From contig CM059431.1 in NCBI GenBank assembly GCA_030390025.1, forward strand, positions 158,598,001-158,662,000: a stretch of DNA of 64,000 nt, in the 5' to 3' direction. A program made the translations under genes and the position numbers. This document shows positions 11,801 through 58,674 of this stretch, piece by piece (within the stretch, counting starts at the first letter, position 1; each line of letters begins with the position of its first letter). Source of the stretch: Squalus acanthias (taxonomy: Eukaryota). Under the pieces are notes generated by a model, which saw nothing but the letters and a program-made list of their open reading frames with translations, did no database searches and had not been told where the DNA came from.

Positions 11801-11922
11801 GAGAAAGCAGGAATGGGGTACTGAGGAAGCATGTTCAGCCATGAAAGCATTAAATGGCGGTGCAGGCTCGAAGGACCGAATGGTCTACTCCTGCACCTAT
11901 TTTCTATGTTTCTATGTTTCTA
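8850..11922 (+). mobile_element. CR1 LINE, young, nearly complete ORF2 (APE endonuclease + RT)
   Basis: The 569-aa ORF 9138-10847 has ITETWL, MGDFN, SDH, NYRPVSLTS and DFQKAFDKVPH, and continues in ORF 11064-11741. Tail is (tttctatg)n at ~11900-11922. The element splits a sequence that is contiguous at 1591-1630. Confidence 0.95.
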
Positions 11923-15350: not shown

Positions 15351-15714
15351 GTAATTCACCGAATATGTAAAATATCATTATCAACAACTGCTGTTTTACG
15401 GGCACGTGGGGTAATATTAGGTAAAAGTAAAAACATTCACTGAATTCGATCCAATAATGAGCACATTATCTCATTCCACTCTCTGCTGTGCTAAATTGAA
15501 CCGTAAGAGACGGCACCGGAGTGTCTGTTCGGGTAATACTTGAAAGTGCTGTGATGCTCATTTAATTAGATCAGATTGGATGTAGTCAACATTACATCCA
15601 AATCAAGCGAACTATTTGCACCACGGGGGAGTCTGGACTAATCAGTAAGATATATTATCCTACCCATTAATCTTGATATCTTAGATCGCTGTTGGGAAAA
15701 AAAATAACATTTCA

Positions 15715-16933: not shown

Positions 16934-17197
16934 GTGAGTAATTATGTTTAAAATATTGAACTTTACAACTGGAAAGTTATTTATCTATAATAATTCTAAT
17001 TAGTGCGAATGTTGATCAGGCAGTTCACTTTTCAATTTAAATTAAGACGGAAATAATTTATAAACAGGAAAAAAACGCACATATCATGAATGGTTTCTCC
17101 CGCGATTCTGGAATTTCACAGTAATTATTAGCAAGTGATGTATATTTTAACGTGTGAGCGTTTTATATAATTTCTGTTTATTTTTCGATCGTTGCAG

Positions 17198-17390
17198 GTT
17201 AAAAGCTAACGACATCACAGATCATTGAGTGGAAAATCTGTTCTCTGCCCTCCGTGAAAACGGTTCACTGATGGAGCTGGATCTGAGGAATAGCAATCAG
17301 GATGGCGAACGGGCCAACAGACTGACTGACAAGTCTGTTTCCTTCATTGTCCCGTCTGATCCAGAGTAGAGCTAATCTCAAGGAAATCAG
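17198..17390 (+). pseudogene. NLR copy 1 LRR exon with stop and frameshift
   Basis: tgcAG acceptor, then LKANDITDH*VENLFSALRENGSLMELDL...NRLTDKSV. An extra T near 17340 gives 193 nt. Donor CAG|gtgtgt. Confidence 0.85.
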
Positions 17391-17634
17391 GTGTGTTTCC
17401 AGGTTAACAATTTATTAATTAAATGTTCTTTCACATGTAAAATGCATTTTCGGTATTTTAATTTGAATAGACTACAGATGGGAAAAATAAAATAATTATC
17501 TGGTGGAGAATTTGTTTCCTTCGCATGAGTAAACACATTTATTTTGAATGAATTTAATTATATCGCTACTCACAGTGAGCGGAAGATACCGTCCTAATCG
17601 ATAATAATTTTTTCGTGATATTAATATTTTTCAG

Positions 17635-17722
17635 TTTGACACACAATCAATTCTCTGCAGAAGGACTGAAAATTCTGAAGTTGGTCAATTTATCGGGGCA
17701 TTTGACTGTAATTACAGGATAA
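17635..17722 (+). CDS. NLR copy 1 terminal exon
   Basis: ttttcAG acceptor, then LTHNQFSAEGLKILKLVNLSGHLTVITG-stop. A paralogous exon lies at 57554-57640. Confidence 0.75.
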
Positions 17723-17864
17723 AAGATTGCTTATCATGAAGATTGTTTTATGCAAACATGTTAATTAGGTGATCCTCTACAGAATCAGTTGCATTAATGA
17801 ACAGGTTGTCGGGACATGCTCCAGAGTGAACAAACAACATAACTGAGCTCAGTAGACGCATTTA

Positions 17865-18250
17865 CCCCCTTACCACTGTCCAGTGACCCAAGTACTCCCT
17901 CTAGGTTAAACAGCGATATACAAGTACTTCTTTCACTGCCTTACAGTGTATTCGCTGTTGAGATTGCAGTCTCCGCTACAGTGGGGAGACCAAGTGCAAG
18001 GTCAGTAATCGCTTTAACGAACACACCTGTTCACTCTGCAAGTGTGACGCTGAGCTTCCGGTCGCTGACCATTTTAATTCTCCATCTCACAGTGACCTCT
18101 TTGTACTCGGGCAATGAAGCTCATCGGCAGCTCGAGGAATAGCACATCATCTTTTGAGTAGGAACTTTGCCACCTTCCGGACTCAACACTGAGTTCAACA
18201 ATTTTAGATCATAGCCACTGCTACCATTTTTTACGACAGCAGGAGCCGGT
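17865..18250 (+). mobile_element. Penelope-like element GIY-YIG endonuclease remnant
   Basis: Degenerate translation QVKQRYTST...CIRC..C.L.YSGETK...RF.EH...LPVADHFNSPSH...HIIF.VGTL.PSGLNTEFNNF. A paralog lies at ~57810-58190. Confidence 0.78.
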
Positions 18251-19132
18251 AATGGGTCTATTGTTCAATGAGGAGTATCCCGCTGGATGTTATCACAGAA
18301 TTCAGAGTCGGAGCTCAGATCTGAGCTTGCTGCGATTGGTGATGGAAACCTGCACCTTGTGATTCAGAGGCAAGAATGTTGCCGTGAAGTCGATTTCCTG
18401 AAGTGATCAGGAGCTATACCAAGGGCGGACAGATTTAATTCAGTCCTAAATTTAAAAGCGTGCATTCTCTCCTTATTTGTCTATTAATATTTTGATTTAA
18501 TATTATATTTGATACATAAATACAAAACTATAGGTAACTTAGCTTGCAGAGAGATAGAGTTCGCTGATGCCATGGGATTTCTCTGCAAGTAGTCGGACAA
18601 TGTAATCGGGAGGCACTGCAGCGCCGCCAGTGAGCAGAGGGTGTAATTAAAGCTTAAGAACTAGATCCACAGCGTCAATTAGAAATGTGGACATCAGAAT
18701 GTATAATATATCTGCATAGAGACATAATAATTTTTTATTTATTACCAAACATCTAATACACGAATTATTCAAAGAATAATAAAATAAACGCAATGGAGAC
18801 TGAATTACATGTGCGTGCACTGATTTGTTTATGCAAGGTAGAAAGGGATTGTGGATTGCACTGTTCAGAATGTGGTCATTCAATAGCCAGTGCTGGACAG
18901 CTCAGGACAACAAATAAAGTGGAAACAAACGGATTTTGGCGACATCCTGCAAGTCTGACAGAGAGAATCAGCAGTCACAGGTGGAGCGTCTTCCTGAGTT
19001 ACACGAAGTGTCTAGTAGATACGGGCTGTACCTCTGTTAGTTCAATTGTAGTAGTGACTCAGAGGCGAGTTCTCCTCGGTAATATTGTGGCAAGTTGGTG
19101 ATAAGGTTACCGACGGGATACGATGTATATTT

Positions 19133-27774: not shown

Positions 27775-28748
27775 ACATAGACATAGACATAGAAAATAGG
27801 TACAGGAGTAGACCATTCGGTCCTTCGAGCCTGCACCGCCATTCAATGCGTTCATGGCTGAACATGCTACCTCAGTACCCCATTCCTGCTTTTTCGCCAT
27901 ACCCCTTGATCCCCTTAGTTGTGAGTGTTATATCTAACTCCCTTTTGAATATATTTAGCGAACTGGCCTCAACAACCTTCTGTGGAAGAGAATTCCATAG
28001 ATTCACCACTCTCTGGGTGAAGAAGTTCCTCCTCAGCTCAGTCCTAAATGGCTTCCCCTTAATCCTTAGACTGTGACCCCTGGTTCTAGTTTTCCCTACC
28101 ATTGGGAACATTCTGCCCGCATCTAATTTGTCTAAACCAGTCAGGATTTTAAATGTCTCTATAAGATCCCCCCTCATTCTTCTGAACTCCAGAGGATACA
28201 AGTTCAGTTGACCCAATCTTTCTTGATATGTCAGTCCGGCCATCCCAGGAATCAATCTAGTGAACCTTCGCTGCACTCCCTCAATAGCAAGAATGTCCTT
28301 CCTTAAGTTAGGAGACCAAAACTGCGCACAATACTCCAGGTGTGGCCTCACCAAGGCCCTGTACAACTGTAGCATCACCTCCCTACTCCTGTACTCAAAT
28401 CCCCTTGCTATGAAGGCCATCATTCCGTTTGCTTTCTTGACTGCCTGCTGCACTTGCATTCCCACCTTCAGTGACTGATGTACCATGACGCCCAGGTCTC
28501 GTTGCACGTCCCCTTTCCCTAATCTGCCACCATTCAGGTAATAGTCCGCCTCTCTATTTTTACCACCAAAGTGGATAACCTCACATTTATCGACATTGTA
28601 CTTCATCTGCCATACATTTGCCCATTCACCCAACCTGTCCAAGTCACTCTGTAGCCTCCTAGCATCCTCCTCATTGTTCACACTGCCTCCCAATTTAGTG
28701 TCATCCGCAAATTTGGAGATATTACATTTAATCCCTTCGTCCAAATTA
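27775..28748 (-). mobile_element. CR1 LINE 3' portion, close sibling of 8850-11922, inserted in an older CR1 remnant (27510-28910)
   Basis: The 297-aa ORF 27872-28765 is almost identical to the C-terminus of the 8850 element. The flanks share ttacatag. Confidence 0.93.
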
Positions 28749-32396: not shown

Positions 32397-33060
32397 CTAG
32401 AGTGCAGTTTGTCACGGAGTGCAGATTTGGAAAAGAGTGCTAAGCTGCGAGTTTGGTGAGTGAGGGAGTAACTCTTAAACGTTAATCTCTTATTTTTATA
32501 AATTCTAGTCTTGTGTGCTTGCAATTAGTACTTAAATTTACTGTTTCAAGTTTTAAGTTTCTTCCAGGCTTGGGCAGGGCTAAGCAAGCTCTGTGCTGGA
32601 GAGCAGGTGATAGTAATTAATTAATTAACTGGTCTAATCTGGTTCTGTAACTGCCAGAGAGCTCACGTATTTAAATCGCAGCAGTATAAATAAGGGAGAC
32701 TAGAGTGCAGTTTGTCACGGAGTGCAGCTTTGGAATAGAGTGCTAAGCTGCGAGTTTGGTGAGTGAGGGAGTAACTCTTAAACGGTTAATCTCTTATTTT
32801 TATAAATTCTAGTCTTGTGTGCTTGCAATTAGAATTTAAATTTACTGTTTCAAGTTTTAAGTTTCTTCCAGGCTTGGGCAGGAATAAGCAAGCTCTGTGC
32901 TGGAGAGCAGGTGATAGTAATTAATTAATTAGCTGGTCTAATCTGGTTCTGTAACTGCCAGAGAGCTCACTTATTTAAATCTCAGCAGTATAAATAAGGG
33001 AGACTAGAGTGCAGATTTGGAATAGAGTGCTAAGCTGCGAGTTTGGTGAGTGAGGGAGTT
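32397..33060 (+). repeat. ~303-bp tandem monomers (about 2.2 copies) at the 5' end of a full-length CR1
   Basis: Near-identical units start with ctagagtgcag at ~32397, ~32700 and ~33004. Units end with gtataaataagggaga. Confidence 0.9.
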
Positions 33061-37620: not shown

Positions 37621-39330
37621 GCCGAGAAGAGGCTACGTGGTCGCGCGACCAATTGTCGTTTGAACAAGATTGGAAAGGATATTCGAGCGGCTATCGGCAC
37701 ATGTTGCCGATGACTCGAGCTAGATTCGCAATCCAACTTGCAAACACTCTCGCACATTCCTTTCGCTATTCACTGCTTTGTCATTCAGTTTTTGGCCGCC
37801 TGCTTGATCTCGGAGTTATAAGGAAATATATGCTCAAAAATTGTCTTGCTGGGGTCATATAGTCATAGAGTCATAGAGTTATACAGCAGAGATAGAGGCC
37901 CTTAGGCCCATCGTGTCCGCGCCGGCAATTAAGACACATCTCTTCTAATCCAATTTTCCAGCACTTGGTCCGTAGCCTTGTAGACTATGGCATTTTAAGT
38001 GCTCATCTAAATGCTTCTTGAATGTTGTGAGGTTTTCTGCCTCTACCACCCTTTCAGGCAGTGAGTTCCAGATTCCAACCACCCTCTGGGGGGAAAAGAT
38101 TTTCCTCAAATCCCCGCTAACAAGACTGCCCCTTACATTGAAACTATGCCCCCTGGTTATAGACCCTTCTACTAAGGGGAAAAGTTCCTTTCTATCTACC
38201 CTATCTATGCTCCTCATAATTTTGTGCACCTCAATCAGGTCCCCCCTGAGCCTTCACTGCTCTAAGGATAACAACCCCAGCCTGTCCAGTCTCTTTGCAT
38301 AGCTGAAGCGCTCCAGCCCAGGTGACGTCCTGTTGAATCTCCTCTGCACCCTCTCCAATGCATCACATCATTCCTATAGTGTAGCGAACAGAACTGCACA
38401 CAGTATTCCAGCTGTGATCTAACTAGCGTTTTGTAAAGCTCCATCATAACCTCCCTGCTCTTATATTCTAAGCCTCGCCTAAAGAAGGCAAATATACCAT
38501 ATGCCTTTTTAACGACGTTATCTACTTGTCTTGCTGCCTTCAGGGATCTATGTACATGCACACCAAGATCCCACTGATCCTCTGTCATTCCTAGCGTCCT
38601 ACGATTCATTGTGTATTCCCTCGCCTTGTTAGTCCTCCCAAAATGCATCACCTCACACTTTTCAGTGTTAAATTCCATTTGCCAATGTTCTGACCATCTG
38701 AACAACCCGTCTATATCGTCCTGTAGCCTGAGGCTTCACTCCTCGCTGTTTACCACACCACCAATTTTCGTGTCATCTGCGAGCTTACTGATCATACCTC
38801 CTACATTCATATCAAATTAATTAATGCACACTACAAACAGTAAAGGAGACAGCACCGATCCCTGTGGTACACCACTGGACACAGGCTTCCAGTCGCAAAA
38901 ATAACCTTCGTCCATCACCATCTGCCTCCTGCCACTAAGCCAATTTTGGAGCCAATGTGCCAAATTTCCCTAGATCCCATGGGCTCTTCCCTTCTTGACC
39001 AGTCTCCCACGCTGGACTTTGTCAAAAGCCTTACTGAAGTACATGTAGACTACATCAACTGCACTACCCTCATCCACGCACCAAGTCACCCCCTTGAAAA
39101 AATCAATCAAATTGGTTAGACATGATCTCCTCCTGACAAAGCCATACTGACTATCCTTGATTAATCCTTGCCTATCCAAGAGGAGACTAATTCGTCTCTC
39201 AAATGTTTTTTTTCCAATAATTTCCCTACCACTGATGTTAGGCTCACTGGCATGTAATTCCCTGGTTTATCCCTATTACCCTTCTTGAATAATGGTACTA
39301 CGTTAGCTGTACTCCAGTCCCCTGTCACTT

Positions 39331-39370
39331 CACCTGAGGAAGGAGCAATCGATAGCTCCGAAAGCTTGTG
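39331..39370 (+). ncRNA. Minimal type I hammerhead ribozyme motif with intact core
   Basis: cac-CTGAGGA-a-ggagc-aatcgata-gctcc-GAAA-gctt-gtg. Stem I is cac/gtg, stem II is ggagc/gctcc, and helix III is the palindrome AAGCTT. Confidence 0.8.
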
Positions 39371-40469
39371 ATTTCAAATAAAACTGTTGGACTATAACCT
39401 GGTGTTGTGCGACCTCTCAATTACATCCCCTGTGGACGGAGAGGATGTGAAAATGTGTGTCAAGAGGCTCTGTAATCTCCTCCCTTGCCTCACACAGCAG
39501 TCTGGGATAGATCTGGTCTGTGCCTGGGGATTTATCCATTTTATGCTCGCTAAAACCTCTAGTAACTCCTCCCACTCAATACTAATTTGTTCAAATATAT
39601 CATAAACCCCTGCCTGATTTATATGCCTACATCGTCCATCTCCAAAGTGAACACAGATGCAAAACATTCATTTGAAACCTCACCCACATCTTCCAGCTCT
39701 ACAAACAGATTGCTACTTTGGTACCTAATGGGCCCTACTCTTTCTCTGGCTGTCCTCTTGCCCTTAATATACTTTTAAAACACCTGGAATTTTCCTTTAT
39801 TTTGCCCGCCAGTGTTTTTTCATGCCCCCTCTTCGCTTCTTAGTTCTTTTTTAAGTACCCCCCTGCACGTTCTATACTCCTCTAGGGGTTCCACTGTTTT
39901 AAGTCCTTTGTATCTGCCAAAAGCCTCCCTTTTTTTCCAAATTAATTCTTGTATGTCCCTTGACATGCAGGGTTCCCTGGGCTTGTTGGTCCCACCCTTG
40001 ACCTTTACGGGAACATGTTGGCGCTGTACTCTATCTATTTCCTATCTGAAAGACTCCCACTGCTCTGATGTGCATTTTCCTACAAGCAGCTGATCCCAGT
40101 CCACTTTGGCCAGATCCTGCCTTATCATTTTAAAAGCGGCCTTCCCCCAATGTAGAACCTTTATTTCCGGTCCATCTTTGTCCTCTACCAAGACTACCTT
40201 AAATCTCACCGAATTGAGCTCACTGTCACCGAAATGCTCTCCTACTGACGCTTCTGCCACTTGCCCGGCTACATTCACTGGAATTATGTCCAGTACCGTC
40301 CCGTCTCTTGTAGGGCTTTCTACATGTTGGCTGAAATAGCTCTCCTGGATGCAATTTAAGAATTCCGCACCTTCTAAGCCTTTCACCCTCTGACTATCCC
40401 AGTTAATATTGGGGAAGTTGAAATCCCCTACTATTATTACCCTATTATTTCTATACTTCTCTGAGATTT

Positions 40470-43400
40470 CTGTGAGCGTCGGATGCAGTTTCAGCGGTGG
40501 CAGTGGGCATATAAAAGGCTCCAGAGACAGGTAAGGCCTCAGAGCGTCGGCGGGAGTTTTAGCGGCGGCAGTGGGCCTATAAAAGTCTCCAGAGACCAGG
40601 TAAGGCGTACCAGTCTCCGAACTCGGAGGGCAAAATAATCGAAGTTTAACGTCACCAAAAAGCAGGTAAGTGATCGTTGGTGAGTATTTCTCTCTTTTTA
40701 ATCTTAAATTCTGTGGTGTTAAATTTCTAGGGTATCTGTGGTGTAGTGGGTACAGTTGGTAAATAAAGCGCCCTAGAGTATATTTTTAACTGGGGTATTG
40801 AATACATTTTTAATTTAATTAAAGGAGTAGGTCATGGCAGGTGGGATCAGCCCCGTGTTATGCTCCTCTTGCTCCATGTGGGAATTCAGGGACGCTGCCA
40901 GTGTCCATGGGGACCGTGTGTGCGAGAAATGCATCCAGCTGCAGCTACTTGTAGACCGCATTGCGGCGCTCGAGCTGCGGGTGGATGAGTTTTGGAGCAT
41001 ACGTGATGCTGAGAGGGTCGTGGACAGCACGTTTAGCGAGTTGGTCACGCCGCAGGGTAGGGCTGCACAGTCAGAAGGGAAATGGGTGACCATCAGGCGG
41101 AGCAGCAGAGGCAGGCAGGTAGTACAGGGGACCCCTGCGGTCATCCCCCTTTCAAACAGGTATACCGATTTGGATACTGTTGAGGGGGATGACTCACAAG
41201 GGGAGAGCAGCAGCAGCTAACTTCCTGGCACCAGGGTTGCTTCTGCTGCTCAGAAAGGGAAGAAAAAGAGTGGGAGAGCAATAGTGGTAGGGGATTCTAC
41301 CGTAAGTAGAACAGATGGGCGTTTTTGTGGCCGTAAACGTGACTCCAGGATGGTTTTTTGCCTCCCTGGGGAAAGGGTCATGGATGTCAATGAGCGGCTA
41401 CAGGGCATTCTTAAGGGGGAGGGTGAGCAGGCAGAGGTCGTGGTTCACATTGGGACCAACGACATAGGGAGGAAGGGTGATGAGGTCCTGCATCAAGAAT
41501 TTAGTGAGCTAGGCAGCTGATTAAAGAGCAGGACCTCAAAGGTTGTAATCTCTGGATTAATCCCAGTGCCACGTGCTAGTCAGTATAGGAATAGGAGGAT
41601 AGAACAGATGAATGCGTGGCTAAAGAGTTGGTGCAGGAGGGAGGGTTTTAGTTTCCTGGATCACTGGACCTGCTTCTGGGGAAGGTGGGACTTGTACAAG
41701 TCGGACGGTTTGCACCTGAACCAGAGCGGGACAAATATCCTTGCGGGGAGGTTTGCTAGCTCTCTTGGGTGGGGGGGGGGGGGGGGTTAAACTAATTTGG
41801 ATGGGGGCTGGGATAAAGAGTGGAGCTACAATAGGGGGTGATGTACAGTCAAATATAGAGAAAAAGACAAGTCAGCTTGGAAGACAGGGCAAACATGTAA
41901 GAGCAAGGCTGGAAGGCATTTATTTTAATGCAAGGAGTCTAGCGAATAAGGTGGATGAACTGAAGGTGTTGATAAATACATGGGAGTATGATGTTGTTGC
42001 TATCACGGAGACATGGTTGAGGGAGGGGCAAGACTGGCAGCTCAATATTCCGGTGTACAGAATCTTCAGCCGAGACAGAGGGGGAGGTATAAGAGGAGTG
42101 GGTGTCGCAATATTAATTAAGGAATCAATTACTGCCATAAGGTGGGATGATACATTAGCAAGTTCCTTCAATGAGGCTATATGGGTGAAGCTTAAAAACA
42201 AAAAGGGGGCAAGCCCTTTGCTGGGAGCGTACTATAGGCCCCCAAACAGTCAGGGTGAGATAGAGGAACAGATATGTACGCAAATCTCAGAGAAATGTGC
42301 AAATAATAGGGAAATAATAATGGGGGATTTCAACTACCCCAATATTAACTGGGATAGTCAGAGTGTGAAAGGCTTAGAGGGTTCAAAATTCTTAAAGTGC
42401 ATCCAGGAGAGCTTTTTTGAGCCAGCATGTAGAAATTCCTACAAGAGAGGGGGCGGTACTGGACCTAATTATAGGGAATGTGGCCGGCCAAGTGGAAGAA
42501 GTGCTAGCTGGTGAGCACTTTGGTGACAGTGACCATAATACGGTGAGAATTAAGGTGGTCATGGAAAAGCCAGGGATGGGCCGGAAATAAAGGTTCTCAA
42601 TTGGGGGAATGCCGATTTTAATAGGATAAGGCAGGATCTGGACAAAATGGACTGGGATCAGCTGCTTGTAGGAAAATCCGCATCGGAGCAATGGGATTCT
42701 TTCAGAAGGGAGGTTGAGATCATACAATGGCAGCATGTTCCCGTAAAGGTCAAGGGTGGTTCCAAAAACACCAGGGAACCTTGGATGTCAGGGGATATAC
42801 GAGAATGGATCAGGAAAAAAAGGAGGGCTTTTGGCAGATACAAAATGCTAAAGATGGAGGAAGCCCTAGAGGAGTACAAAAAGTGCAGGGGGATACTTAA
42901 AAAAGAAATTAGGAGATCAAGGAGGGGCCATGAAATAACACTGGCGAGCAAAATAAAGGATAATCCTAAGATGTTTTATAAGTATATAAAGGGTAAGAGG
43001 ATAACTAGGGAAAAATAGGGCCCATCAGTGACAAAAGTGGCAATCTGTGTGTGGAGCCGGAAGATGTAGGTGGGGTTCTAAATGATTTTTTTGCATCTGT
43101 TTTCACTATGGAGAAGGACGATGCAGACATATAATTAGGGCAGGGTGACTGTGATTTACTCGAACAATTTAACATCTAGAGGGAGGAGGTATTTGCGGTT
43201 TTAGCAGGTCTAAAAACGGATAAATCCCCAGGTCCGGACTAAATGTATCCCAGGCTGCTGTGTGAGGCAAAGGAGGAGATTGCGGGGGCTCTAACACATA
43301 TATTAAGAACCTCTCTGGCCACAGGGGATGTGCCAGAGGACTGGAGAACCGCTAATGTAGTACCATTATTCAAGAAAGGGAGTAGGGAAAAAACGGGGAA

Positions 43401-44790
43401 CTACAGGCCAGTGAGCCTAACATCAGTGGTAGGAAAATTATTGGAAAAAATTCTGAGGGACAGAATGAGTCTCCACTTGGAGAGGCAAGGATTTATCAGG
43501 TTTAGCAAACATGGCTTTGTCAAGGGAAGATCATGTCTGACTAATTTGATTGTATTTTTTGAGAGGGTGACTAGGTGTGTGGATGAGGGTAACGCAGTGG
43601 ATGTGGTATACATGGATTTCAGTAAGGCCTTCGATAAAGTCCCGTACAGGAGATTGGTCAAGAAGGTAAGAGCCCATGGAATCCAGGGTGCCTTGGCACA
43701 TTGGATACAAAACTGGCTCAGTGGCAGAAGGCAGAGGGTGATGGTCGAAGGTTGTTATTGTGACTGGAAGCCTGTGGCCAGTGGGGTACCACAGGGATCG
43801 GTGCTGGGTCCCTTGCTGTTTGTGGTCTACATTAACGACTTGGATATGAAAGTAAAAGGTATGATCAGTAAGTTCGCGGATGATACAAAAATTGGTAGGG
43901 TGGTATATAGCGAGGAGGGTAGCCTCAGTCTGCAGGACGATATAGATGGGTTGGTCAGATGGGCGGCACAGTGGCAAATGGAATTTAATCCGGAAAAGTG
44001 CGAGGTGATGCACTTTGGAGGGACTAACAAGGCAAGGGAATATAAAGTGAATTATAAGACCCTAGGCAAGACGGAGGGTCAGAGGGATCTTGGTGTGCAA
44101 GTACACAGATCCCTGAAGGCGGCGGAACAGGTGGATAATGTGTTAAAAAAGGCATATGGGATACTTGCCTTCCTTAGCCGAGGCATAGAATATAAGAGCA
44201 AGGAGGTTATGATGGAGCTGTATAAAACACTGGTTAGGCCACATCTGGAATACTGTGTGCAGTTCTGGTCGCCACACTACAGGAAGGATGTGTTCGCTTT
44301 GGAGAGTGTGCAGAGGAGATTCACCAGAATGTTACCCGGGCTAGAGTGCTTCAGCTATGAAGAGAGACTGGGCAGATTGGGTTTGTTTTCCTTGGAGTAG
44401 AGGAGGCTGAGGGGGGACATGATTAAGGTGTGCAAAATTATGAGGGGCATAGATAGGATGGATACTAAGGAGCTTTTTCCCTTAGCAGAGGGGTCTATAA
44501 CAAGGCGGCATAGATTCAAGGTAAAGGGCGGGAGGTTTAGAAGGGATTTGAGAAATAACTTTTTCACCCAGATTATGGCTGGAGTCTGGAACTCACTGCC
44601 TGAAAGGGTTGTGGAGGCAGGAACCCTCACAACATTCAAGAAGCATTTGGATGAGCACTTGAAATGCCATAGCATACAAGGCTACGGATCAAATGCTGGA
44701 ATATGGGATTAGATTAGACAGGTCTTGATGGCCGGCGCGGACTCGATGGGCCGAAGGGCCTCTATCCGTGCTGTATAACCTTCTGACCCT
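40470..44790 (+). mobile_element. Near full-length CR1 LINE (ORF1 zinc finger/esterase + ORF2), nested
   Basis: ORF1 40834-41790 has CSSCSMW..C..C, VGDS, VHIGTND and DGLH. ORF2 ~41900-44712 includes the 385-aa RT ORF 43243-44400. Confidence 0.94.
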
Positions 44791-46199
44791 ATTTGTCTGC
44801 ATATCTGTTCCTCTATCTCCCCCTGACTGTTTGGGGGCCTATAGTTCACTCCCAGCCAAGTTCTTGTCCCCTTTTTGTTTTTAAGTTCTACCCATATGGC
44901 CTCATTAGAGGAACCTGCTAAGATATCATCCCTCCTTGCTGCAGTAATTGACTCCTTGATTAATATTGGATTAGTATCGATTACGCCTCCCCCGTAAAAA
45001 TTCCGCGCACCATCCCTGTCCATAAATGTAAAAAATCACTTTTATTATGTTCAGGCAAATCACAGCAAGGTCCCGGTAAAGCAAGGAATGTCAAGATGAT
45101 GAATCGGTGCCTAAGTGGAGAGAGGCGTGAAAAACATTAACAATGTAAATTATAATGTGGGAGTGAAGTATGGGTGGCAGAATAAAAATACATTGAAGCG
45201 GGCACGTACCTGGAAGAAGCAGGTTATGATACGGGAAAAGATGGAGATCGAATTGAGTATGAAGATGATGTTGATGTGCTGGAGTGGGCTGCAAATGACA
45301 AAATAAATGATGAAGAGCGTGACTTTTTGCAGAGCAACTGCAAATGTGCCGGAGAATGAACAGAGCGTCTGATAATCTAGCCATCGGTAAAGCCCTGAAG
45401 CTGTATTTCATTGCAAAGGACGCTTCTTTCTGTATTCTGTATCTAGCACTGATGAATACTGAAACATTTCAATTAGTACCAGACACCAAAAAGTGCTGGA
45501 ACTCTGATTCTTATCTTCAATATTTTTTTTTTATTTACGAGAATTTAGCCGCGGTGCATTTTAATGATCGTTTACAGACCGCAGCGATTCGGAATCAAAG
45601 TTATCCCATTTCCTCACTTATTCGAATCCCATTACATTATGGTAAATCTGAATCCACTGCTGATAGGATTGGCGTTTTTTGTTATGATTATGTTTCAATT
45701 CGTACATGTGTAACACGGATATTGTCGTGTGGGTATTGAATGTTCGAACAAGGATTAGCCGTCTTAACATTCGTCAAAATGCAGGTAATGCACGGATTTA
45801 AATACACTGCCTGAATTAATCACAGAATAACGATGGAGAGTTAAATTAAAATATCTAACGCCACCAGTGATTGCTAAATGCACGTTTAAAAACTAAACTG
45901 ACTTCAAATGACACTTAGATTATTTTATTTAATTTGAGACCGTGCAACTTCAGCTAAGCAGCGTCAGCTGGTGCCAGAAGCGAGCAGGTTTCGCAGTGAA
46001 TTTGTGTAGATTATTTTTAGAAATAGGAAAATATGTTTTTTTAAAAACAGATGTATTTCAGGTGGAGAAAGAGGTAGATGCCCCACACTCTGGAATTCTC
46101 TTAAAAAAAACGGCTCCGCTTCTACAAACGCTGTCATTCCTTGAACGTCTGCATTAAACTCACTTTTTTGACTACACTCTTATATCTTTCATTGGTCCC

Positions 46200-46589: not shown

Positions 46590-49500
46590 AGAAAGAAAGA
46601 AAGAAAGAACATAAGAAATAAGAGCAGGAGTAGGCCATTCGGCCCCTCGAGCCTGCACCGCCATTCAATGAGATCATGGCTGATCAGATCTTGGCCTCAA
46701 CGCCACTTTCCCGCCCGATCCCCATAACCGTTGATACCCCTGTAACTCAACTATAACTAAAAGGAGTCAGTCTGCACCTTGAACATGTCCAATGACTCCG
46801 CCTCAGCAGCTCTCTGGGGTAGAGAATTCCAAAGATTCACGACCCTCTGAGAGGAAATTCCTCAGCTCCGTTTTAAATGGGAGACCCCTTATCCTGAAAT
46901 TGTGCCCCCTAGTTCCAGGTACCCCCACGAGGGGAGAACTCCTCAGGGCATTTACCCTGTCAAGCCCCCTCAGAATCTTATATGTTTCAATAAGATCACA
47001 TCTCATTCTTCAGAACTCCAATGAGCATAGGCCCAACCTGCTCAACCTTTCTTCAAAAGACAACCCCTTCATAGAGTCATAGAGTTATACAGCACAGAAA
47101 GTGGCCCTTTGCCCATCGTGTCCATTCCGGCCATCAAGCCCTGTCTATTCTACTCCCATGTTACAGCACTTGGTCCGTAGCCTTGTATGCTATGGCATTT
47201 CAAGTGATCATCTAAATGCTTCTTGAATGTTGTGAGGGTTCCTGCCGCTACCACCCTTTCACACAGTGAGTTCCAGATTCCAAAAACCCTCTGGGTGAAA
47301 AAGTTTTTCCTCAAATCCCCTCTAAACCTCCTGCCCCGTACTTTGAAACTATGCCCCCTGGTTATTGGCCCCTCTATTAAGGCGAAAAGTTACTTTCTAT
47401 CTACCCTATCTATGTCCCTCATAATTTTGCACACCTCAATCAGGTACCCCCTCAGATTTCTCTGCTCAAAGGAAAACAACCCCAGCCTGTCCAGTCTCTC
47501 TTCATAGCTGAAGCGCTGCAGCCCAGGTAACATCCTGGTGAATCTCCTCTGCACCCTCTCCAATGCAATCACATCCTTCTTATAGTGTGGCGATCAGAAC
47601 TGCACACAGTATTCCAGCTGTGGCCTAACCTGCGTTTTGTACAGCTCCATCATAACCTCCCTGCTTTATATTATATGCCTCGGCTAATGAAGGCAAGTAT
47701 CCCATATGCCTTTTTAAGCATCGTATCTACCTCTCCTGCTGCCTTCAGGAATCTATGTACATGCACGCCAAGGTCCCTCTGATCCTCGGTAGTTCCTAGG
47801 GTCCTACCAGTCATTGTGTATTCCCTTGCCTTGTTAGTCCTCCCAAAATGCATCACCTCACACTTTTCAGCGTTAAATTCCATTTGCCACTGTTCTGCCC
47901 ATCTGACCAACCCGTCTATATCGTCATTTAGCCTGAGGCTTCCCTCCTCGCTATTTACCACCCCACCAATTTTCGTGTCATCTGCAGACTTACTGATCAT
48001 ACCTCCTACATTCATATCTAAATCATTAATGTAAACTACAAACAGCAAAGGACTCAGCAGCGATCCCTGTGGTACAGCACTGCACACAGGCCTCCAGTCA
48101 CAAAAACAAACTTCGACCATCACCCGCAGCCTCCTGCCACTAAGCCAATTTTGGATACAATGTGCCAAGTTGCCCTGGATCCCACGGGCTTTTTCCGTCT
48201 TGATCAGTCTCCCATGCGAGACATTGTCAAAAGCCTTACTGAAGTCCATGTAGACCACATCAACTGCACTGCCCTCATCCACAAACTTAGTCACCCCCTC
48301 AAAAAATTCAATCAAATTGTGCAGACATGATCTCCCCCTGACAAAGCCATGCTGGCTATCCTTGATTAATCCTTGCCTCTACAAGTGGAGACTAATTCTG
48401 TCCCTCAGAATTGTTTCCAATAATTTCCCTAGCACTGATGTTAGGCTCACTTTCCTGTAATTCCCTGGTTTATCCCTACTACCCTTCTTGAATAATGGTA
48501 CTACGTTAGATGTCCTCCAGTCCTCTGGCACCTCCCCTGTGGCCAGAGAAGTTCTGAAAATTTTTGTCAGAGCCTCTGCAATCTCCTCCCTTGCCTCACA
48601 CAGCAGCCTGGGATACATCTCGTCTGGCCCTGGGGATTTATCCACTCTTAAGCCTGCTAAAACCGCTAGTACGTCCTCCCTCTCAATACTAATTTGTTCA
48701 AGTATATCACAATCCCCCTGCCTGATTACTATGCCTACATCGTCCTTCTCCATATTGAACACAGATGCAAAATATTCATTTAAAACCCCAACTACATCAT
48801 CTGGCTCTACACACAGGTTTCCACTTTGGTCCCTAATGGGCCCTTCTCTTTCCCTGGTTATCCTCTTGCCCTTAATATAATTATAAAACAAATTGGGATT
48901 TTCCTTTATTTTGACCGCCAGTGTTATTTCATGCCCCCTCTTCGCTCTCCTAATTTATTTTTAAGTACCCCCCTGCACTTTCTATACTCCTCCAGGGCTT
49001 CCACTGTTTTCAGTCCTTTGTATCTGCCAAAAGCCTCCTTTTTTTTCCTAATCCATTCTCGTATATCCCTTGACATCCAGGTTTCCCTGGGCGTGTTGGT
49101 CCCACCCTTGACCTTTACGGGAACATGTTGCCGTTATACTCTCTCTATTTCCTTTCTGAAAAACTCCCACTGCTCTGATGTGGATTTTCCTACAAGCAGC
49201 TGATCCCAGACCAATTTGGCCAGTACCTGCCTTATCATGTTAAAATCGGACTTCCCCAATTTAGAAACTTTATTTCCGGTCCATCTTTGTCTTTTTCCAT
49301 GAATACCTTAAATCTCACTGAATTATGGTCACTGTCACCAAAATGCTCTCCTACTAACACTTCTAGCATTTGCCCGGCTACATTCCCTAGAATTATGTCC
49401 AGTACCGCCCCCTCTCCTTTAGCACTTTCTACATGCCGGTTCAAAAAACTCTGCTGGATGCACTTTAAGAATTCGGCACCCTCTAAGCCTTTCACACTCT

Positions 49501-52500
49501 GACTATCCCAGTTAATATTGGGGAAGTTGATATCCCCTATTATTATTACCCTATTATTTCTACACATCTCTGAGATTTGCCTTCTTATCTGTTCGTCTAT
49601 CTCCCCCTGACTGTTTGGGGGCCTATAGTACTCTTCCAACAAAGTGCTTGCCCCCTTTTTGTTTTTAAGTTCTACCCATATGGCCTCATTAGAGGAACCT
49701 GCTAAGATATCATCCCTCCTTACAGCAGTAATTGACTCCTTGATTAATATTGCGACATCACCTCCTCTTTTACACCTCCCTCTGTCTCGCCTGAAGATTC
49801 TATGCCCCGGAATATTGAGCTGCCAGTCCTGCCCCTCCCTTCATCTCAGGAATCAGCCTAGTGAAACTTCTCTGAATTGCCAATCAATGCAAGTATATCC
49901 CTCCTTAAATAAGGAGACCAGAATTGTATGCAGTACTCCAGGTGTGGTCTCACCAGCGCCCTGTTCAGTTGTAGCAAGACGTCCCTTCTTTTATACTCCA
50001 CCCCCTTGCAATAAAGGCCAACATTCCATTTGACTTCCTAATTAATTGCTATTCCTGCATGCTAACTTTTTGTGTTTCATGTACGAGGTCCCCCAGATCC
50101 CTCTGTTCCGCAGCATTATGTAGTCTCTCTCAATTTGAATAATAAATTGCTGTTTTATTTTTCCTACTAAAGCGGATAACATCACATTTTCCTGCATTAT
50201 ACTCCATCTGGCAAACGTTTTACCCACTCACTTAACCTATCGTTATCCCTTTGCAGACTTTTTGTGTCCTCCTCACAACTTGCTTTCCCACCTATCTTTG
50301 TATCATCAGCAAATGTGGCCATAGTGCACACGGTTCCTTCATCCAAGTCATTAATATAGTTTGTCAATATTTGAAACCCCAGCACTGATCCCTGTGGCAC
50401 CCCTCTAGTTACAGTTTGCCAACCGGAAAATAACCCATTAATCCAGAATCTTTGTTTGCTGTTAGTTAGCCAATCCTCTATCCATGCGATTATATTAAAC
50501 CCAACCCCGTGAGCTCTTATGGTGTGCAGTATCCTTTTATGTGGCAACTTTTCGAAGGCCTTCTGGAAATCTAAATACACTACATCTACTGGTTCCCCTT
50601 TATCCACCCTGCTCGTTACATCCTCAACGAATTCTAGTAAATTTGTCAAACACTTTCATAAATGTTGATTCTGCTTGATTGTATTTAGATTTTCTAAATG
50701 TCCTGCTATTACTTCCTTAATAATGGATTCCAGCAAGTGTTAGTAGGAGAGCATTTTCCCAATGACATATGTTCGGCTAACTGGCCTAATGTTTCCTGCT
50801 ATTTGCCTCCCTCCTTTCTTGAATAGGGGCGTTATATTTGCGGTTTTCCAATCCGCTGGGACCTCTCTGGAATCCAAGAATTTTGGTAGATTACACCCAA
50901 CGCATCCATTATCTCTGCAGCCACTTCTTTTAAGACCCTGGGATGTAGGCCATCAGGTCCAGGGGACTTGTGAGCCTTTAGGCCCATTAGTTTGCCTAGT
51001 ACTTTTTCTCTACTGATAGACATTGTTTTAAGTTACTCCCTCCCTATAGCCCCTTGATTATCAATTATTATTGGGATGCTTTTAGTATCTACTACCGTGA
51101 AAACCGATACAAAATATTTGTTCAAAGTCTCTGCCATTTTTCTTTTTCCCATTATTAGTTCCCCAGTCCCATCCTCTAAAGAACCAACGTTTACTTTAGA
51201 TAATCTCTTCCCTGTTATATACCTGTTGAAGCTCTTACTTTCTTTTCTATATTTTGTGTTAGATTACTTTCATAATCTATCTTCTCCCTCTTTATTATTT
51301 TTCAGTCATCCTTTACTGGTTTCTAAAATGTCCCCAATCCTCTGGCCTACCACTAATTTTTGCAACATTATATGCCTTTACTTTCAATTTGATACCTTCC
51401 TTAACTTCCTCAGTTATCGACAGATGGTTTATCTTTCTCATAGAGTCTTTCTTTCTCACTGGACAGAACCTTTGCTGAGAGTTATGAAATACTTCTTAAA
51501 TGTCTGCCACCGCTTATCTACCGTCTTACACATTAATCTATTTTCCCAGTCTACTTTAGCCAACTCTGTCTTCATACCTTTGTAATTGCCTTTATTTAAA
51601 CTTAGGACACTAGTTTCAGACCCAATTTTCTCACCCACATACTGAATTTCAAATTCTATCCTACTATGTTCACTCTTCCCTAGTGGATCCTTGACTATGA
51701 CATCATTAATTAATCCCTACTCAGTACACATTGCCAGATCTAAAATAGCGTTCTCCCTGTTGGGTTCCACGGCGTATTGTTCTAAGAAACCATCCAGAAT
51801 ACATTATGGGAACTCGTCCTCAAGGTACCCTTGCCAATTTGATTTGCTCAATCGATATGAAAATTAAAATCGCCCATGATTATCGCAGTACCTTTCTTAC
51901 AAGCCCCAATTTTTTATTGATTTATACTCTTTGTTAAAGTGTAGCTAATGTTAGGGGGCGTTTAGATTACTTCCAACAGTGACTTCTTTCCTTTACTATT
52001 TCTTATCTCCACACAAACTGATTCTTCATCTTGATATTCTGAGCCAATATAATTTCTCACAACTGCACTGATCTCATCCTTTATTAACAGAGCTACCCCA
52101 CGTCCTTTTTCCTTCTGACAATCCTTCTGAAATGTCAAATATCCCTGAATATTCAGTTCCCAGCTTTGGTCACATTTCAACACGTCTCTTTAATGGCTTT
52201 CAGATCATACTCATGTATTTCTATTTGTGCCGTCAACTCATCTATCCTGTTATGGATGCTGCGTGCATTCAGATAAAGACGTTTTATTTTTTTCTTTATA
52301 CCATTTTTACCTACTCTGAAACTATTTGCTGGCGCACGCTAATGTTCGTACGATCTATTTCCTCCTGTCACGCACTGATTATCATCATCCCTGTCGTTAC
52401 CCTGCACTATTAGCTTCTCCTTTCTCTTTGACTTTCTAAATTCCCCTTCACCTGAACCCCCCCCCACCCACCCCACTATTTAGTTTAAAGCCCTTTTTAG

Positions 52501-54782: not shown

Positions 54783-55323
54783 CCAGTCTCATGTGCTGGT
54801 CAATAAAACGTTTCTGACCGTAAAAGCACGGAGCAGCAGAATCAGAACAAAGAAACCCCCAGGATTAGAAAGCAATGAATGAACTCGATTGCTGGCCAGA
54901 CCCGTGACTTCCCAACATCGTTTATTACATGACGAAACCAGAGGTCGTTCATAACCCTTATTGACCTGTGAACATAAATTGACAGTAATTTACCAATATT
55001 GACGTTTGCTATTTTTCTCGTAATTTAGAAATCTTCATTACCAGAAGCTGAAAATCCAAAAACAAACTGCCCACAAACCTCAAGCGTGCTTTATAACGCA
55101 TTGTCTTGATACTTGAGAAATGTATGATATGTACGGATATTGTCTTTTTTGCTCAGAGTGTCTGGGCACTAAACTGTAAAATAATTAATGGCTGAACCAT
55201 TGGTCAGAATCTTTCTAGTTTTTTTGTTTCATAATGATTAGTTTTTCCTTCATAGCACTGAGCTGTCAAATATTTATCTCTTGAATTAAAAGGACTACAC
55301 CAATGACGTTGTTCATATTCAAG

Positions 55324-57640
55324 AGATAGAACTGCAGCACAAAGACACTCTCCACAAAGAAAATGTGAAGATGACATTGAAAACCACTGTAGGAAAAAAA
55401 AGATTTCGAAGATTTTTTCTGGATGAAAAATCAACTAAATAACGATTGTTGCTTCCCTGCGTGAGCGGAGATTCGTAGAAAATGAACTGAAGGCCCGAGG
55501 TAGAGAGCGTGAAGAACTACAGAGCAAAATCCTCTAGAATGAAATAGAAGAAATTCACCTGAATCAATTGCTGAGTTTCACGAAAACAGGCAGTTCTGGG
55601 ACAACCGTGGTAATTGGGGCCGCGGGGATTTGTAAAAGCACCATGCTGCAGAAGATAATCCATGATTGGGCCGCAGGGAAAATACACAAACAGATTAAAG
55701 TTGTCTTTCCTTTTAAGATTCGACAATTGAATTTAATAAAAGGAAAAACATGTCTAACTAGCCTGATCCTGGATTCCTATTCCGAATTCCAAACTGAGTT
55801 GGAACTTCTGTGGAAAGAACCTGGAAAGATATTCTTTATATTTGATTATTTAGACAAATGTAACTATCGATTTCACAGAAATTCAGAGAAACAACGACCC
55901 GCAATATCAATGTTTCGATCCCGACTGCTGCAGTGAAGTGTCAGACATCATACAGGGACACTTACTGAAAGGCGGCTCAGTACTGATCACAAGCCGGCAG
56001 TGGAAACTGAAGTCTCAGGGAAAGGCAAACTTATTTCCAACGGTGGAAATTCTGGGTTTCACCTCTGAGAAAATAAAACATTACTTCCAGCGTTACTTTG
56101 TAGATGAACAGATTGCGACAGATGTAATCGAGTACATTGAACAGATTGGCCCAGAAATTAAACATCGATGGTTCCCGCGGGGGTAAGGATTCCCCGCGAT
56201 ATCGCACTCCACGCCTACCTTTTTGTTTCGTGTCCACACGAACTTCAGTTTCAGGGCCTCTCCCTGTTGCCAGCGTGCAGTGCTTGCATGTCCCTGAGGC
56301 GCAATTAGTTCGTGCGAGCTCTGGGATCACGTGATTCAATTAGAGTCAATGGCAGCACACCTTATTCCATTCATAGTTTTGACAGCAAGGGCAATCAAAG
56401 CTATGAATACTACAAGCCCCCAAAAGAACAGCTAAACCTCAATTAAATTTAAAAAACCCATCACATTAATAAAATAACTATAGTTAAATAAATTAACCAC
56501 TTTAAACAAAAAATTTAATTTTTGAAATTTTTTTAAATATTTTTAAAATTATAAAAATAAACTTACCTTTCTTTAAAGTCTCTAAAAAGGATAAACCTGC
56601 TGAAAAAAATTAAAAATAACACGTAATTAACTACTTACCTTGTTAAAAGGGGTCCTACGCCTGCTTTCTTTATGTGTAAAATCTTCACCACTTACCTGCG
56701 CGTTCAAATCTGAAAAAAATTCTAACTGCACTGCGTGCGCACAACCTGTAGTGCGCACGCGGTTCACTTAGGAACCGCCCCCTTTGCAGTACACGAAGCG
56801 CCGGTTTCCCGCGGATGCGCAGTGCATGCAGGAAACCGGCAATTCGGGACCTAATACGCGAGAGTACACAGTGCGTACTCTCGCGTATTAGGTCTAATTT
56901 TCGGATACACCATGTGCTACAATCCTCTTTACTGCTCGTTCCTCGCTTCATTATTAGAGTCACACCGGGTACAAGGAGCGGGGGACAGACCATAATGCAC
57001 ATATCATGAAAAGGTTTCTCCCGCGATTCTGGAATTCCACAGTAATTATTAGCAAGTGGTGTATATTGTATAGTGTGAGCGTCTTATATAATTTCTGTTT
57101 ATTTTTCTGTCACTGCACGTTAAAATCTAACGATCTCACAGATGATTGTGTGGAAAATCTGCTTTCTGCCCTCCGTGAAAACGGTTCACTCATCGAGCTC
57201 CATCTGAGTAACGATAATCAGGAGGCGAACGGGCCAACAGACTGAGTGACAATTCTGTTCCGGCATTGCGTAGTCTCATCCAGAGTAGAGCTAATCTCAA
57301 GGAAATTAGAGGAGTTTCCGAGTTATCTATTTCTTAATTTAATGTTCTTTCACGTGTAAAATGTATTTCCGTTATTTTAATTTGAATAGACCAGACATGG
57401 GGAAAATGAAATCATTATCTTGTGGAGAATTAATCTCCTTCGCATGAGTAAGCACGTTTATTTTGAATGAATTTAATAATATTGCTACTCACAGTGAGCG
57501 GAAGAATCCACTCCGTATCGATAATTTTTTTTCGTTCTTTTAATGTTTTTCAGTTTGACTCACAATCAATTCTCTGCAGAAGGACTGACAAATCTGAATC
57601 GGTCAGTGTATCGGGTCATTTGACTGTAATTACAGAATAA
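55324..57640 (+). pseudogene. NLR copy 2 (NACHT + LRR exons), heavily decayed paralog of copy 1
   Basis: Aligns by eye with 13622-14569 and 17074-17722. Walker A is GAAGICKST. It has stops and frameshifts, an insertion at 56146-56903, a deletion junction at ~56993, an LRR acceptor AC at 57117-57118 and a lost donor at ~57310. Confidence 0.92.
56146..56903. mobile_element. Non-autonomous insertion (MITE-like) in the NACHT exon of copy 2
   Basis: Absent at the paralogous site (14470). Imperfect terminal inverted repeat ccagaaatta / taattttcgg, with multiple hairpins. Confidence 0.8.
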
Positions 57641-57809
57641 ATGATTACTTAACATGAAGATTGTTTGATGCAATTGTGTTAAGTATATTTTGTAGGTGAT
57701 ACTCTATTGAAACGGGCCTATTTTTGAACATTTTCGGGATGTGCTCCAGAGAGAAAAGAAACCACAAGCGAGCGCAGGAGATGCAACACCTGCCCTTTCC
57801 TTTCCTCCC

Positions 57810-58190
57810 TTACCACTGTCCAGGGACCTAATTACTCCATCCAGGTTAGACAGCGATATACTAGTAATTCTTTCAATTTCTTATACTGTATTCGCTGTTC
57901 ACGACGTGGTCTCCACTACAGTGGGGAGACCAGTGCAGAATCAATCATCGCTTTGCTGAAAACCTCTGTTCACTCCGCAAGCGTGGCCCTGAGCTTCCTT
58001 TTGGCTTGCCATTATAATTCTCCATCACACTGTGACCTCGTTGTGCTCGACCAATGATGCTCATAGGAAGCTCGCGGAATGGTACATCATCTTTTGATTA
58101 GGCACTTTACAACCTTCCGGAACGAACACTATGTTCAACGACATTAGATGATAAACACTGCTCCCATTTTTTTATGACAGCAAGTCCCGG
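57810..58190 (+). mobile_element. Penelope-like GIY-YIG remnant (duplicated with the NLR locus)
   Basis: Paralog of 17865-18250 in the same position relative to the last exon. Confidence 0.75.
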
Positions 58191-58544
58191 TAATGCTTCT
58201 ACTGTTGCCGTTGGATGTTATCACAGAATTCAGAGCCGGAGCTCAGGTCTCAGCCCGCTGAGATTGGTGATGGAACTGTGCACGGTGTGACTCAGAGACA
58301 AGAATGTTTCCACGAAGTTGATGTCCTCAAGTGAAGAGGAGTTATTCCAGAGATGGGCGGATATAATTCCGTCCTAATTTTAAAGACATGCATATTGCCC
58401 TTATTTTTACATGAATAATTTCATTTGCAATAATCTTTTGATACATATTGATAAAACTATTGAAAATTTAGTTTGTAGAGCGGTAGAGTTCACTGATGCC
58501 ATGGAATTACTCTGCAATGAACCGAACAATGATATCCTGAAGAA

Positions 58545-58660
58545 AATCAGAAAATGCTGGAAATACTCAGCAGGTCAGGCAGCATATGTGGAGAGAGTGA
58601 CAAAGTTAACGTTTCAGCTCGAAGATCTTTCATCAGAACTGGTAAAAGTTAGAGATGTAA
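58545..58660 (-). mobile_element. Penelope-like terminal-repeat fragment
   Basis: Similar to 4485-4600 and contains a hammerhead motif. Confidence 0.7.
58604..58640 (-). ncRNA. Minimal type I hammerhead ribozyme motif with intact core
   Basis: The minus strand reads agtt-CTGATGA-aagatcttcgagct-GAAA-cgtt-aact. Stem II is imperfect, and helix III is the palindrome AACGTT. Confidence 0.7.
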
Positions 58661-58674
58661 CATCCCAGGCAAGG

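What the first reader, a model, noticed from the sequence alone, without database searches (positions are those of the whole stretch)
39331..39425. Intact minimal hammerhead ribozyme carried by a ~90-bp insert inside a CR1
Seen: a short non-CR1 segment interrupts the CR1 at a site that is contiguous in the sibling at ~48520-48545, and the CR1 sequence (c)ac.tc.cctg appears on both sides. The insert has a complete hammerhead core (CTGAGGA, 5-bp stem II, GAAA), a 3-bp stem I and a palindromic helix III (AAGCTT). Known: Penelope-like elements and retrozymes carry such minimal hammerheads, which are proposed to cleave as dimers. Inference: this is the end of a ribozyme-bearing mobile RNA that integrated via short homology, and it is a different family from the two other hammerheads here.
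Basis: partly seen in the sequence, partly recalled or inferred. Interest (0 to 1): 0.7.

Follow-up and report, generated by a model that had tools for sequence, protein, structure and literature searches.

The report
Penelope stub with minimal hammerhead
This 96-base insert in an older LINE belongs to a very abundant repeat family and matches a known tiny self-cutting RNA motif, and it is likely an idle end-piece of a Penelope-type jumping gene, ordinary except that its landing site hints at how such elements would cut and join DNA.

Summary
A 96-bp insert (39327-39422) interrupts a minus-strand CR1; two sibling CR1s lack it. It carries an intact minimal type-I hammerhead: 4-bp (not 3-bp) stem I, an extra nucleotide before stem II, a 4-nt (not 6-nt) helix-III palindrome and U at position 17; 1 of 300 shuffles gave as good a motif. 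Thousands of contigs in 7 of 7 public runs laid match the insert, so it is one copy of a very abundant family. The repeat on both sides is not a target duplication: the left copy is the element's own 5' end, matching the target at 9 of 12 bases. The empty site is the CR1's only 7-bp inverted repeat around a 12-nt spacer, and the right junction sits exactly at its edge. Best reading: a Penelope-like pLTR stub copied from uncleaved RNA, joined by microhomology, now likely idle. No linked RT/GIY-YIG gene was found, so Penelope membership is inferred; cleavage is untested. This scan has reported such stubs, the start-site clustering and the symmetric target before on other DNA. New member of a known kind; low interest.

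The parts
39327..39422 (+). 96-bp insert, one copy of a very abundant short repeat family; likely a Penelope-like pLTR stub (ends ambiguous by about 2 bases)
   Evidence: Absent from two sibling CR1s; contig pile-up over 39324-39431 that collapses in the flanks
39330..39371 (+). Minimal type-I hammerhead motif: stem I 39330-33 with 39368-71, core 39334-40, extra A 39341, stem II 39342-46 with 39355-59, 8-nt loop II, GAAA 39360-63, palindromic helix-III bases 39363-66, U17 at 39367; predicted cut between 39367 and 39368
   Evidence: Descriptor scans and shuffles, numbering and pair probabilities, fold
39325..39331 (+). Initiator-like sequence; its A (39327) is the commonest listed upstream end of sister copies; predicted transcription start
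   Evidence: Loose ends with unrelated flanks before 39327 in 15, 20 and 4 contigs of three runs; Inr-like TCACT described in a rotifer pLTR (PMC3846280); Inr consensus recalled
39377..39382 (+). AATAAA hexamer just after the motif (possible polyadenylation signal; untested)
   Evidence: Sequence
39423..39434 (.). 12-nt spacer of the symmetric CR1 target; present once, matches the insert's first 12 nt at 9 positions
39320..39326 (.). Left arm of the target inverted repeat (perfect 7-bp arms in both siblings; 5 of 7 complementary in the host copy)
   Evidence: host arms read from the sequence
39435..39441 (.). Right arm of the target inverted repeat
37854..40469 (-). Host CR1-type LINE (decayed ORF2, 8-bp tandem repeat at its 3' end); the hammerhead is antisense to it
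   Evidence: Self-BLAST, Pfam endonuclease on the minus strand at 40045-40785 and RT in siblings, tandem repeat 37854-37883
47069..49578 (-). Sibling CR1 with the empty site at about 48523-48548
42282..44792 (+). Second sibling CR1 with the empty site at about 43313-43338

Best explanation
The insert is one copy of a very abundant short repeat with a sequence-intact minimal hammerhead, and it is likely a stub of the terminal repeat (pLTR) of a Penelope-like retroelement that would have been reverse-transcribed from uncleaved RNA into a symmetric site of an older CR1 and is likely idle there. Shown: the insert, the motif, the family, the symmetric empty site, the junction at the arm/spacer edge, the 9-of-12 match, no target duplication. 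Inferred steps: (1) the element's RNA starts at an initiator about 7 nt before the core (39327); (2) the element's protein nicks both strands 12 nt apart, at the inner edges of the two 7-bp arms; (3) reverse transcription starts inside the RNA about 96 nt from its 5' end and runs to that end, through the uncleaved ribozyme; (4) the 12-nt 3' overhang pairs with the cDNA end at 9 of 12 bases, primes the second strand and is resolved to element sequence, so no duplication is left; (5) alone, with a zero-loop helix III and U17, this copy would cut little or not at all. Confidence is about 0.85 for 'Penelope-type stub, idle' and about 0.4 for steps 1-4 together.
For: All four min-hammerhead traits of metazoan PLEs in PMC4209133 that a single copy can show are present (extra nucleotide between 9 and 10.1, G10.1-C11.1, palindromic 15.2-16.2, 4-5 bp helix I); that paper says most such motifs are single, probably truncated PLEs. 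Family: 6,490, 13,639, 1,301 and 1,388 contigs laid in 4 of 4 runs, depth collapsing outside 39324-39431; 2,880, 4,541, 859 and 448 in 4 of 4 runs (one run shared; these counts include some CR1 flank contigs). Sister copies vary at N7 and loop II while the listed loose-end consensus lines keep the core. Upstream ends with unrelated flanks (agreement 0.45-0.64) lie mostly at 39327; downstream the family shares about 10 more bases, then diverges. Target: the only 7-bp-arm, 12-nt-spacer inverted repeat in 2,485 and 2,484 positions of the two siblings, hairpin strength in the top 0.3-0.5% of 35-nt windows. Precedents: a rotifer Penelope inserted in a LINE with no duplication and a microhomology 5' junction, and an Inr-like TCACT in a pLTR (PMC3846280); an anole PLE protein cuts both strands, is predicted to be a dimer, starts reverse transcription inside its RNA and uses mainly unprocessed RNA (PMC11167929). 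Idle: stem I pairing probability about 0.79 in 56 nt, 0.05 in the whole insert, 0.18-0.39 with CR1 flanks; a single Schistosoma min-hammerhead did not cleave; 8 of 9 Xenopus dimers did not cleave.
Against: No RT or GIY-YIG gene was linked to this family: none by Pfam in 24 + 139 open frames of the window other than LINE RTs, no genome held, loose ends limited to 30 letters. One insertion cannot establish a target rule; with any spacer of 0-20 there are 6 and 3 such inverted repeats per sibling, and the host's own arms are only 5 of 7 complementary. The anole protein prefers AT-rich ATT sites, not a GC-rich symmetric site. Upstream loose ends also occur at 39325, 39328, 39330 and 39332, and only 24 rows were shown per call (211 and 117 hidden), so the start-site peak is not a full count. 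A variant that breaks one stem-I pair (39370) holds about a fifth of the depth in two runs and CpG-type core changes occur. Covariation on single copies was not tested.
Confidence: 0.75

Rival explanations
1. The insert is a dispersed monomer of a non-autonomous, tandemly organised retrozyme that moves through a small circular RNA, as the first reader partly implied.
For: Length is within the 51-972 bp range of vertebrate retrozyme consensus units, monomers exist, and one cartilaginous fish has them (bioRxiv 10.64898/2026.07.22.740005). Sequence on both sides of the cut site is compatible with a circular template.
Against: No tandem copy here; contigs laid on the insert show no head-to-tail joint in the joint tables, only one opposite-strand joint and a few short replaced stretches (contigs can hide tandems); classical retrozymes carry canonical type-I motifs whereas minimal ones resemble PLEs (PMC7229834 passages); flanks of sister copies are unrelated on both sides.
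Confidence: 0.08
2. The stub is what is left of a longer Penelope copy, either by ordinary random 5' truncation or by later deletion/recombination between the element's 5' motif and the similar CR1 stretch; the coincidence with the initiator and the spacer edge is accidental.
For: Most PLE insertions are 5'-truncated; solo pLTRs without duplications were ascribed to recombination or deletion; the pLTR is both the start and the end of the element, so one copy cannot tell them apart.
Against: CR1 sequence is not lost at either junction; sister copies also begin at the same base with unrelated flanks.
Confidence: 0.13
3. The ribozyme is active at this locus and cuts a host transcript that reads the plus strand (for example around the NLR-like genes in the window).
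For: Core intact; NACHT-domain frames lie on the same strand at 13738-15354 and 55538-56186.
Against: No partner copy for helix III in the window; U17; poor stem I in context; a loop-II palindrome favours an inactive duplex between two copies (-25.3 against -2.5 kcal/mol for helix III); no evidence that the locus is transcribed or conserved.
Confidence: 0.03
4. The motif is a chance match in a random insert.
For: Rfam finds no hammerhead; folding z-scores are unremarkable (-1.57, -0.11, +1.30).
Against: 1 of 300 shuffles; family-wide retention; a second family in the window has the same architecture with different stems and a different palindrome.
Confidence: 0.01

Closest known systems
Minimal hammerheads (min-HHR) in pLTRs of metazoan Penelope-like elements (Cervera and De la Pena 2014, PMC4209133; parts 1-2 of 4 read, supplement file 2 searched, file 1 not available)
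   Same: Type-I layout with no closed helix III, extra nucleotide before stem II, G10.1-C11.1, palindromic 15.2-16.2, 4-bp helix I, dispersed single copies in large numbers.
   Different: Stem II is 5 bp (7-8 bp in the Schistosoma families); cartilaginous fish are not named in the parts read or in supplement file 2; link to an ORF not shown here.
Poseidon PLE of Anolis carolinensis, PAc (Frangieh et al. 2024, PMC11167929; parts 1-2 of 4 read)
   Same: Hammerhead near the RNA's 5' part; copies end a short fixed distance downstream of it; uncleaved RNA is the main template; both DNA strands are cut.
   Different: No ATG in this insert, whereas the PAc frame starts at stem II; this copy ends 80 nt after the start of stem II (111-118 in PAc); target is GC-rich and symmetric rather than AT-rich.
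Pen2_Av of Adineta vaga inserted in a non-LTR retrotransposon (Arkhipova et al. 2013, PMC3846280; passages read)
   Same: PLE inside a LINE, no target duplication, 5' junction by microhomology; Inr-like TCACT in a related pLTR.
   Different: That copy is a partial tandem with an intact ORF; no symmetric target was described in the passages read.
Metazoan non-LTR retrozymes (PMC7229834, passages; bioRxiv 10.64898/2026.07.22.740005, parts 1-3 of 5)
   Same: Short non-coding unit with a type-I hammerhead, related to PLE pLTRs.
   Different: Defined by tandem units with a ribozyme in each; this copy is single.

Membership tests
min-HHR of metazoan PLEs | Core CUGANGA ... GAAA ... UH intact | tested here: met
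   H17 is U, allowed by the NUH rule (PMC2238771 passage)
min-HHR of metazoan PLEs | [quoted passage not shown] | tested here: met
   A39341; G39342-C39359
min-HHR of metazoan PLEs | Palindromic 15.2-16.2 with no closed helix III; short helix I | tested here: met
   4-nt palindrome 39363-39366, 4-bp stem I
min-HHR of metazoan PLEs | Family of copies with compensatory changes in the stems | tested here: inconclusive
   Family shown; N7 and loop II vary; G-U-compatible changes in stem II; a stem-I change at 39370 and a possible partner change at 39331 were seen only in separate table rows; no per-copy alignment
min-HHR of metazoan PLEs | Self-cleavage as a dimer or with protein help | not testable with these tools
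   Folding only
Endonuclease-positive Penelope-like element | pLTR joined to an RT plus GIY-YIG reading frame in full-length copies | tested here: inconclusive
   None in the window (163 frames of 65 aa or more); no genome held; no locus from three collection scans. A stub is not expected to carry it
Endonuclease-positive Penelope-like element | Optional 30-40 bp tail; partial tandem or inverted copies | tested here: inconclusive
   This copy has no tail; some sister contigs run on with shared bases; one opposite-strand joint in two runs
Non-LTR retrozyme | Two or more tandem units, each with a hammerhead | tested here: not met
   Single copy in the window, no tandem repeat at the site
Non-LTR retrozyme | Circular monomer RNA | not testable with these tools
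   Only contigs were available
Rfam hammerhead families | Match to a covariance model | tested here: not met
   No hammerhead among 4 matches at E up to 5
CR1 LINE (host) | APE endonuclease plus RT ORF2, short tandem repeat at the 3' end, esterase-type ORF1 | tested here: met
   (GDSL frame upstream of the plus-strand sibling); clade assignment from these traits is recalled, no tree was built

The most novel reading that the evidence does not exclude
The many solo minimal hammerheads of this family are not random truncations but complete copies of the first ~100 nt of the Penelope transcript, from the initiator to the internal priming site, made from uncleaved RNA; a two-headed enzyme cuts a symmetric site 12 nt apart and the resulting overhang captures the cDNA end by pairing, which leaves no duplication when the two happen to match, as here.
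Probability: 0.35. Interest if true: 0.55.

Novelty: new member of a known kind. Interest (0 to 1): 0.22.

Why it matters
As a ribozyme find it matters little: minimal hammerheads at Penelope ends are described and occur by the thousand per genome. What could matter is the junction: how Penelope-like elements choose and cut targets, attach their 5' end and why they leave so many lone ribozymes are open questions, and this copy shows an end at a predicted start site, a junction at the edge of a symmetric target and a 9-of-12 pairing in one place. It is one example; a family-wide count would turn it into a test.

Tried and rejected
Whole-genome search: no genome is held, so copy number, full-length copies and ORF linkage stay open. 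Collection scans with a 23-base motif of the insert found 0 loci in viral, metagenome and prokaryote contigs, as expected for an animal repeat. Rfam: no hammerhead. Runs: no RNA holder listed; runs guessed to be RNA were laid as contigs and show neither strand nor start. No listed contig spans the whole stretch, so presence of this very insertion in other individuals or species is untested. A peak of copies beginning at the predicted cut (39368), suggested by earlier scan notes for other families, was not among the 24 loose-end rows shown in either call (211 and 117 rows hidden): not seen, not excluded. Earlier-finding look-ups by sequence and by nearby place were empty. Rejected: a 10-11 bp target duplication (left copy matches the element family); a 6-bp helix III (would consume A14 and U17); tandem retrozyme at this locus. 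Literature; one search found one paper holding Penelope, shark and hammerhead ribozyme, where 'shark' only describes the shape; listings showed no title or abstract start on a symmetric Penelope target. The library lacks most subscription papers and Repbase; supplement file 1 of PMC4209133 and the preprint's supplements were not seen and may list shark families.

Full report
Observation. The window is a repeat-rich vertebrate stretch, mostly CR1-type LINEs with two NLR-like (NACHT) frames; a cartilaginous fish is likely, from recall and from earlier scan notes, not from a test of mine. A minus-strand CR1 at 37854-40469 carries 96 bases that two siblings lack; the siblings are 88.0% and 82.8% identical to it. 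The insert holds a minimal type-I hammerhead: stem I 39330-33 with 39368-71, core 39334-40, an extra A, 5-bp stem II, GAAA, a 4-nt palindrome with no loop and U17. It was the only hit of a strict descriptor in the window; 10 of 300 shuffles gave any hit and 1 of 300 an equally good one. Rfam misses it and folding energy is unremarkable. The two other hammerheads (4469-4600, 58531-58662, minus strand) are another family with other stems and another palindrome; one has a broken core, the other a mismatch in stem II.

Family. No genome is held, so I laid contigs of public runs that share part of the region. On 39300-39450, 6,490, 13,639, 1,301 and 1,388 contigs were laid in 4 of 4 runs, with depth collapsing outside 39324-39431; on 39290-39405, 2,880, 4,541, 859 and 448 in 4 of 4 runs, including some CR1 flank contigs. 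That is 7 distinct runs of 5 coded organisms, out of 20 runs listed. These are contig counts, not copy numbers. Sister copies differ at N7 and in loop II and the loose-end consensus lines keep the core; stem II shows G-U-compatible changes, and CpG-type changes hit C11.1 and G12 in part of the copies. A change at 39370 that breaks a stem-I pair holds about a fifth of the depth in two runs; a matching change at 39331 shows in a separate consensus line, but linkage on one copy was not seen. Covariation is thus not shown.

Ends. Upstream loose ends with unrelated flanks lie before 39327 in 15, 20 and 4 contigs of three runs, with smaller groups at 39325, 39328, 39330 and 39332 (24 rows shown per call, 211 and 117 hidden). 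A39327 is the A of an initiator-like sequence (consensus recalled; an Inr-like TCACT is described in a rotifer pLTR, PMC3846280, passages). Downstream, sister copies share about ten more bases after 39419-39422 and then diverge. The copy keeps 41 nt upstream of the predicted cut, so it was not copied from a self-cleaved linear monomer.

Target. In both siblings the empty site is a perfect 7-bp inverted repeat around a 12-nt spacer, the only such site in 2,485 and 2,484 positions (6 and 3 sites with any spacer of 0-20), and among the strongest 0.3-0.5% of 35-nt hairpins. I looked for symmetry after an earlier scan note named a palindromic target and fixed the spacer at 12 from the notes. The right junction (39422/39423) falls exactly at the arm/spacer edge, the spacer is present once, and the insert's first 12 nt match it at 9 positions in register, reached by 1 of 2,499 and 2 of 2,498 same-strand positions and none on the other strand. 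The host's own arms are 5 of 7 complementary, with one change mirrored on both arms. CR1 contigs in three runs align through the homology and then continue as CR1, which fits the empty-site reading.

Mechanism. Most likely a Penelope-like protein nicked both strands at the inner edges of the arms, primed reverse transcription inside its RNA about 96 nt from the 5' end, copied through the uncleaved ribozyme to the start, and the 12-nt overhang paired with the cDNA end; repair to element sequence left no duplication. These steps are inferred. They follow precedents: the anole PAc protein cuts both strands, is predicted to be a dimer, starts inside its RNA and uses mainly unprocessed RNA, and its hammerhead cuts only with protein (PMC11167929, parts 1-2 of 4); a rotifer Penelope sits in a LINE with a microhomology junction and no duplication. 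Against: PAc prefers AT-rich sites; one insertion cannot prove a rule; no RT/GIY-YIG frame was tied to this family (none besides LINE RTs in 163 frames scanned). At this locus the ribozyme is likely idle: no partner copy, U17 (allowed, but GUC is reported most effective, PMC2238771, passages), stem I pairing probability 0.05-0.39 outside the bare motif, and a loop-II palindrome that favours an inactive duplex between two copies. Single min-hammerheads did not cleave and dimers only weakly in PMC4209133; 8 of 9 Xenopus dimers did not cleave.

Comparison and novelty. It meets every sequence trait of the metazoan PLE min-hammerhead that one copy can show (PMC4209133, parts 1-2 of 4), a paper that already reports thousands of dispersed single motifs per genome. 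It fails the tandem criterion of retrozymes. PLE membership is inferred, not tested. Solo pLTRs, tails and 5' truncation are described (PMC8557442, passages). In seven literature searches I saw no listing on shark PLE hammerheads or a symmetric PLE target; the library is partial and some supplements were not seen. This scan has reported such stubs, start-site clustering and a symmetric 12-nt-spacer target many times on other DNA; those are unchecked AI notes and were used as leads only.

Verdict. Real feature, new member of a known kind, interest 0.22. The boldest reading not excluded, that solo stubs are complete start-to-priming-site copies captured by a 12-nt overhang, has probability about 0.35 and would deserve about 0.55.

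Noticed in passing
window 4469-4600 and 58531-58662 (minus strand): Two copies of a second minimal-hammerhead family (different stems, helix-III palindrome ACGU); one has a broken core, the other a mismatch in stem II; the first extends further upstream into a pyrimidine-rich stretch.
   Followed up: partly
window 39347-39354: Loop II is 8 nt with a 6-nt palindrome; most laid depth in two runs of one organism carries a loop of this length, other organisms have shorter loops. Two copies are predicted to pair through stem II and loop far more strongly than through helix III.
   Followed up: partly
window 39320-39326 and 39435-39441: The host CR1's arms differ from both siblings at 4 of 14 bases, and one change on the left is mirrored by the complementary change on the right.
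   Followed up: no
window 13738-15354 and 55020-56186 (plus strand): Two related NLR-like (NACHT, winged helix, HD2) frames about 74% identical, the second broken; shared downstream blocks 17074-18602 and 56994-58531 suggest a local gene duplication.
   Followed up: no
window 40474-40606: 68-bp tandem duplication with a TATA-like motif, near the 5' part of the plus-strand CR1 that carries a GDSL-esterase frame at 41521-41787.
   Followed up: no
window 10952-11917 and 27781-28746: Two LINE 3' ends 94.8% identical in opposite orientation, the youngest long pair in the window; also a 44791-44968 / 49575-49752 block 92.7% identical that suggests a nested or duplicated junction.
   Followed up: no
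window 32397-33059: About 300-bp tandem duplication, 92.6% identical, without a hammerhead by my scans.
   Followed up: no
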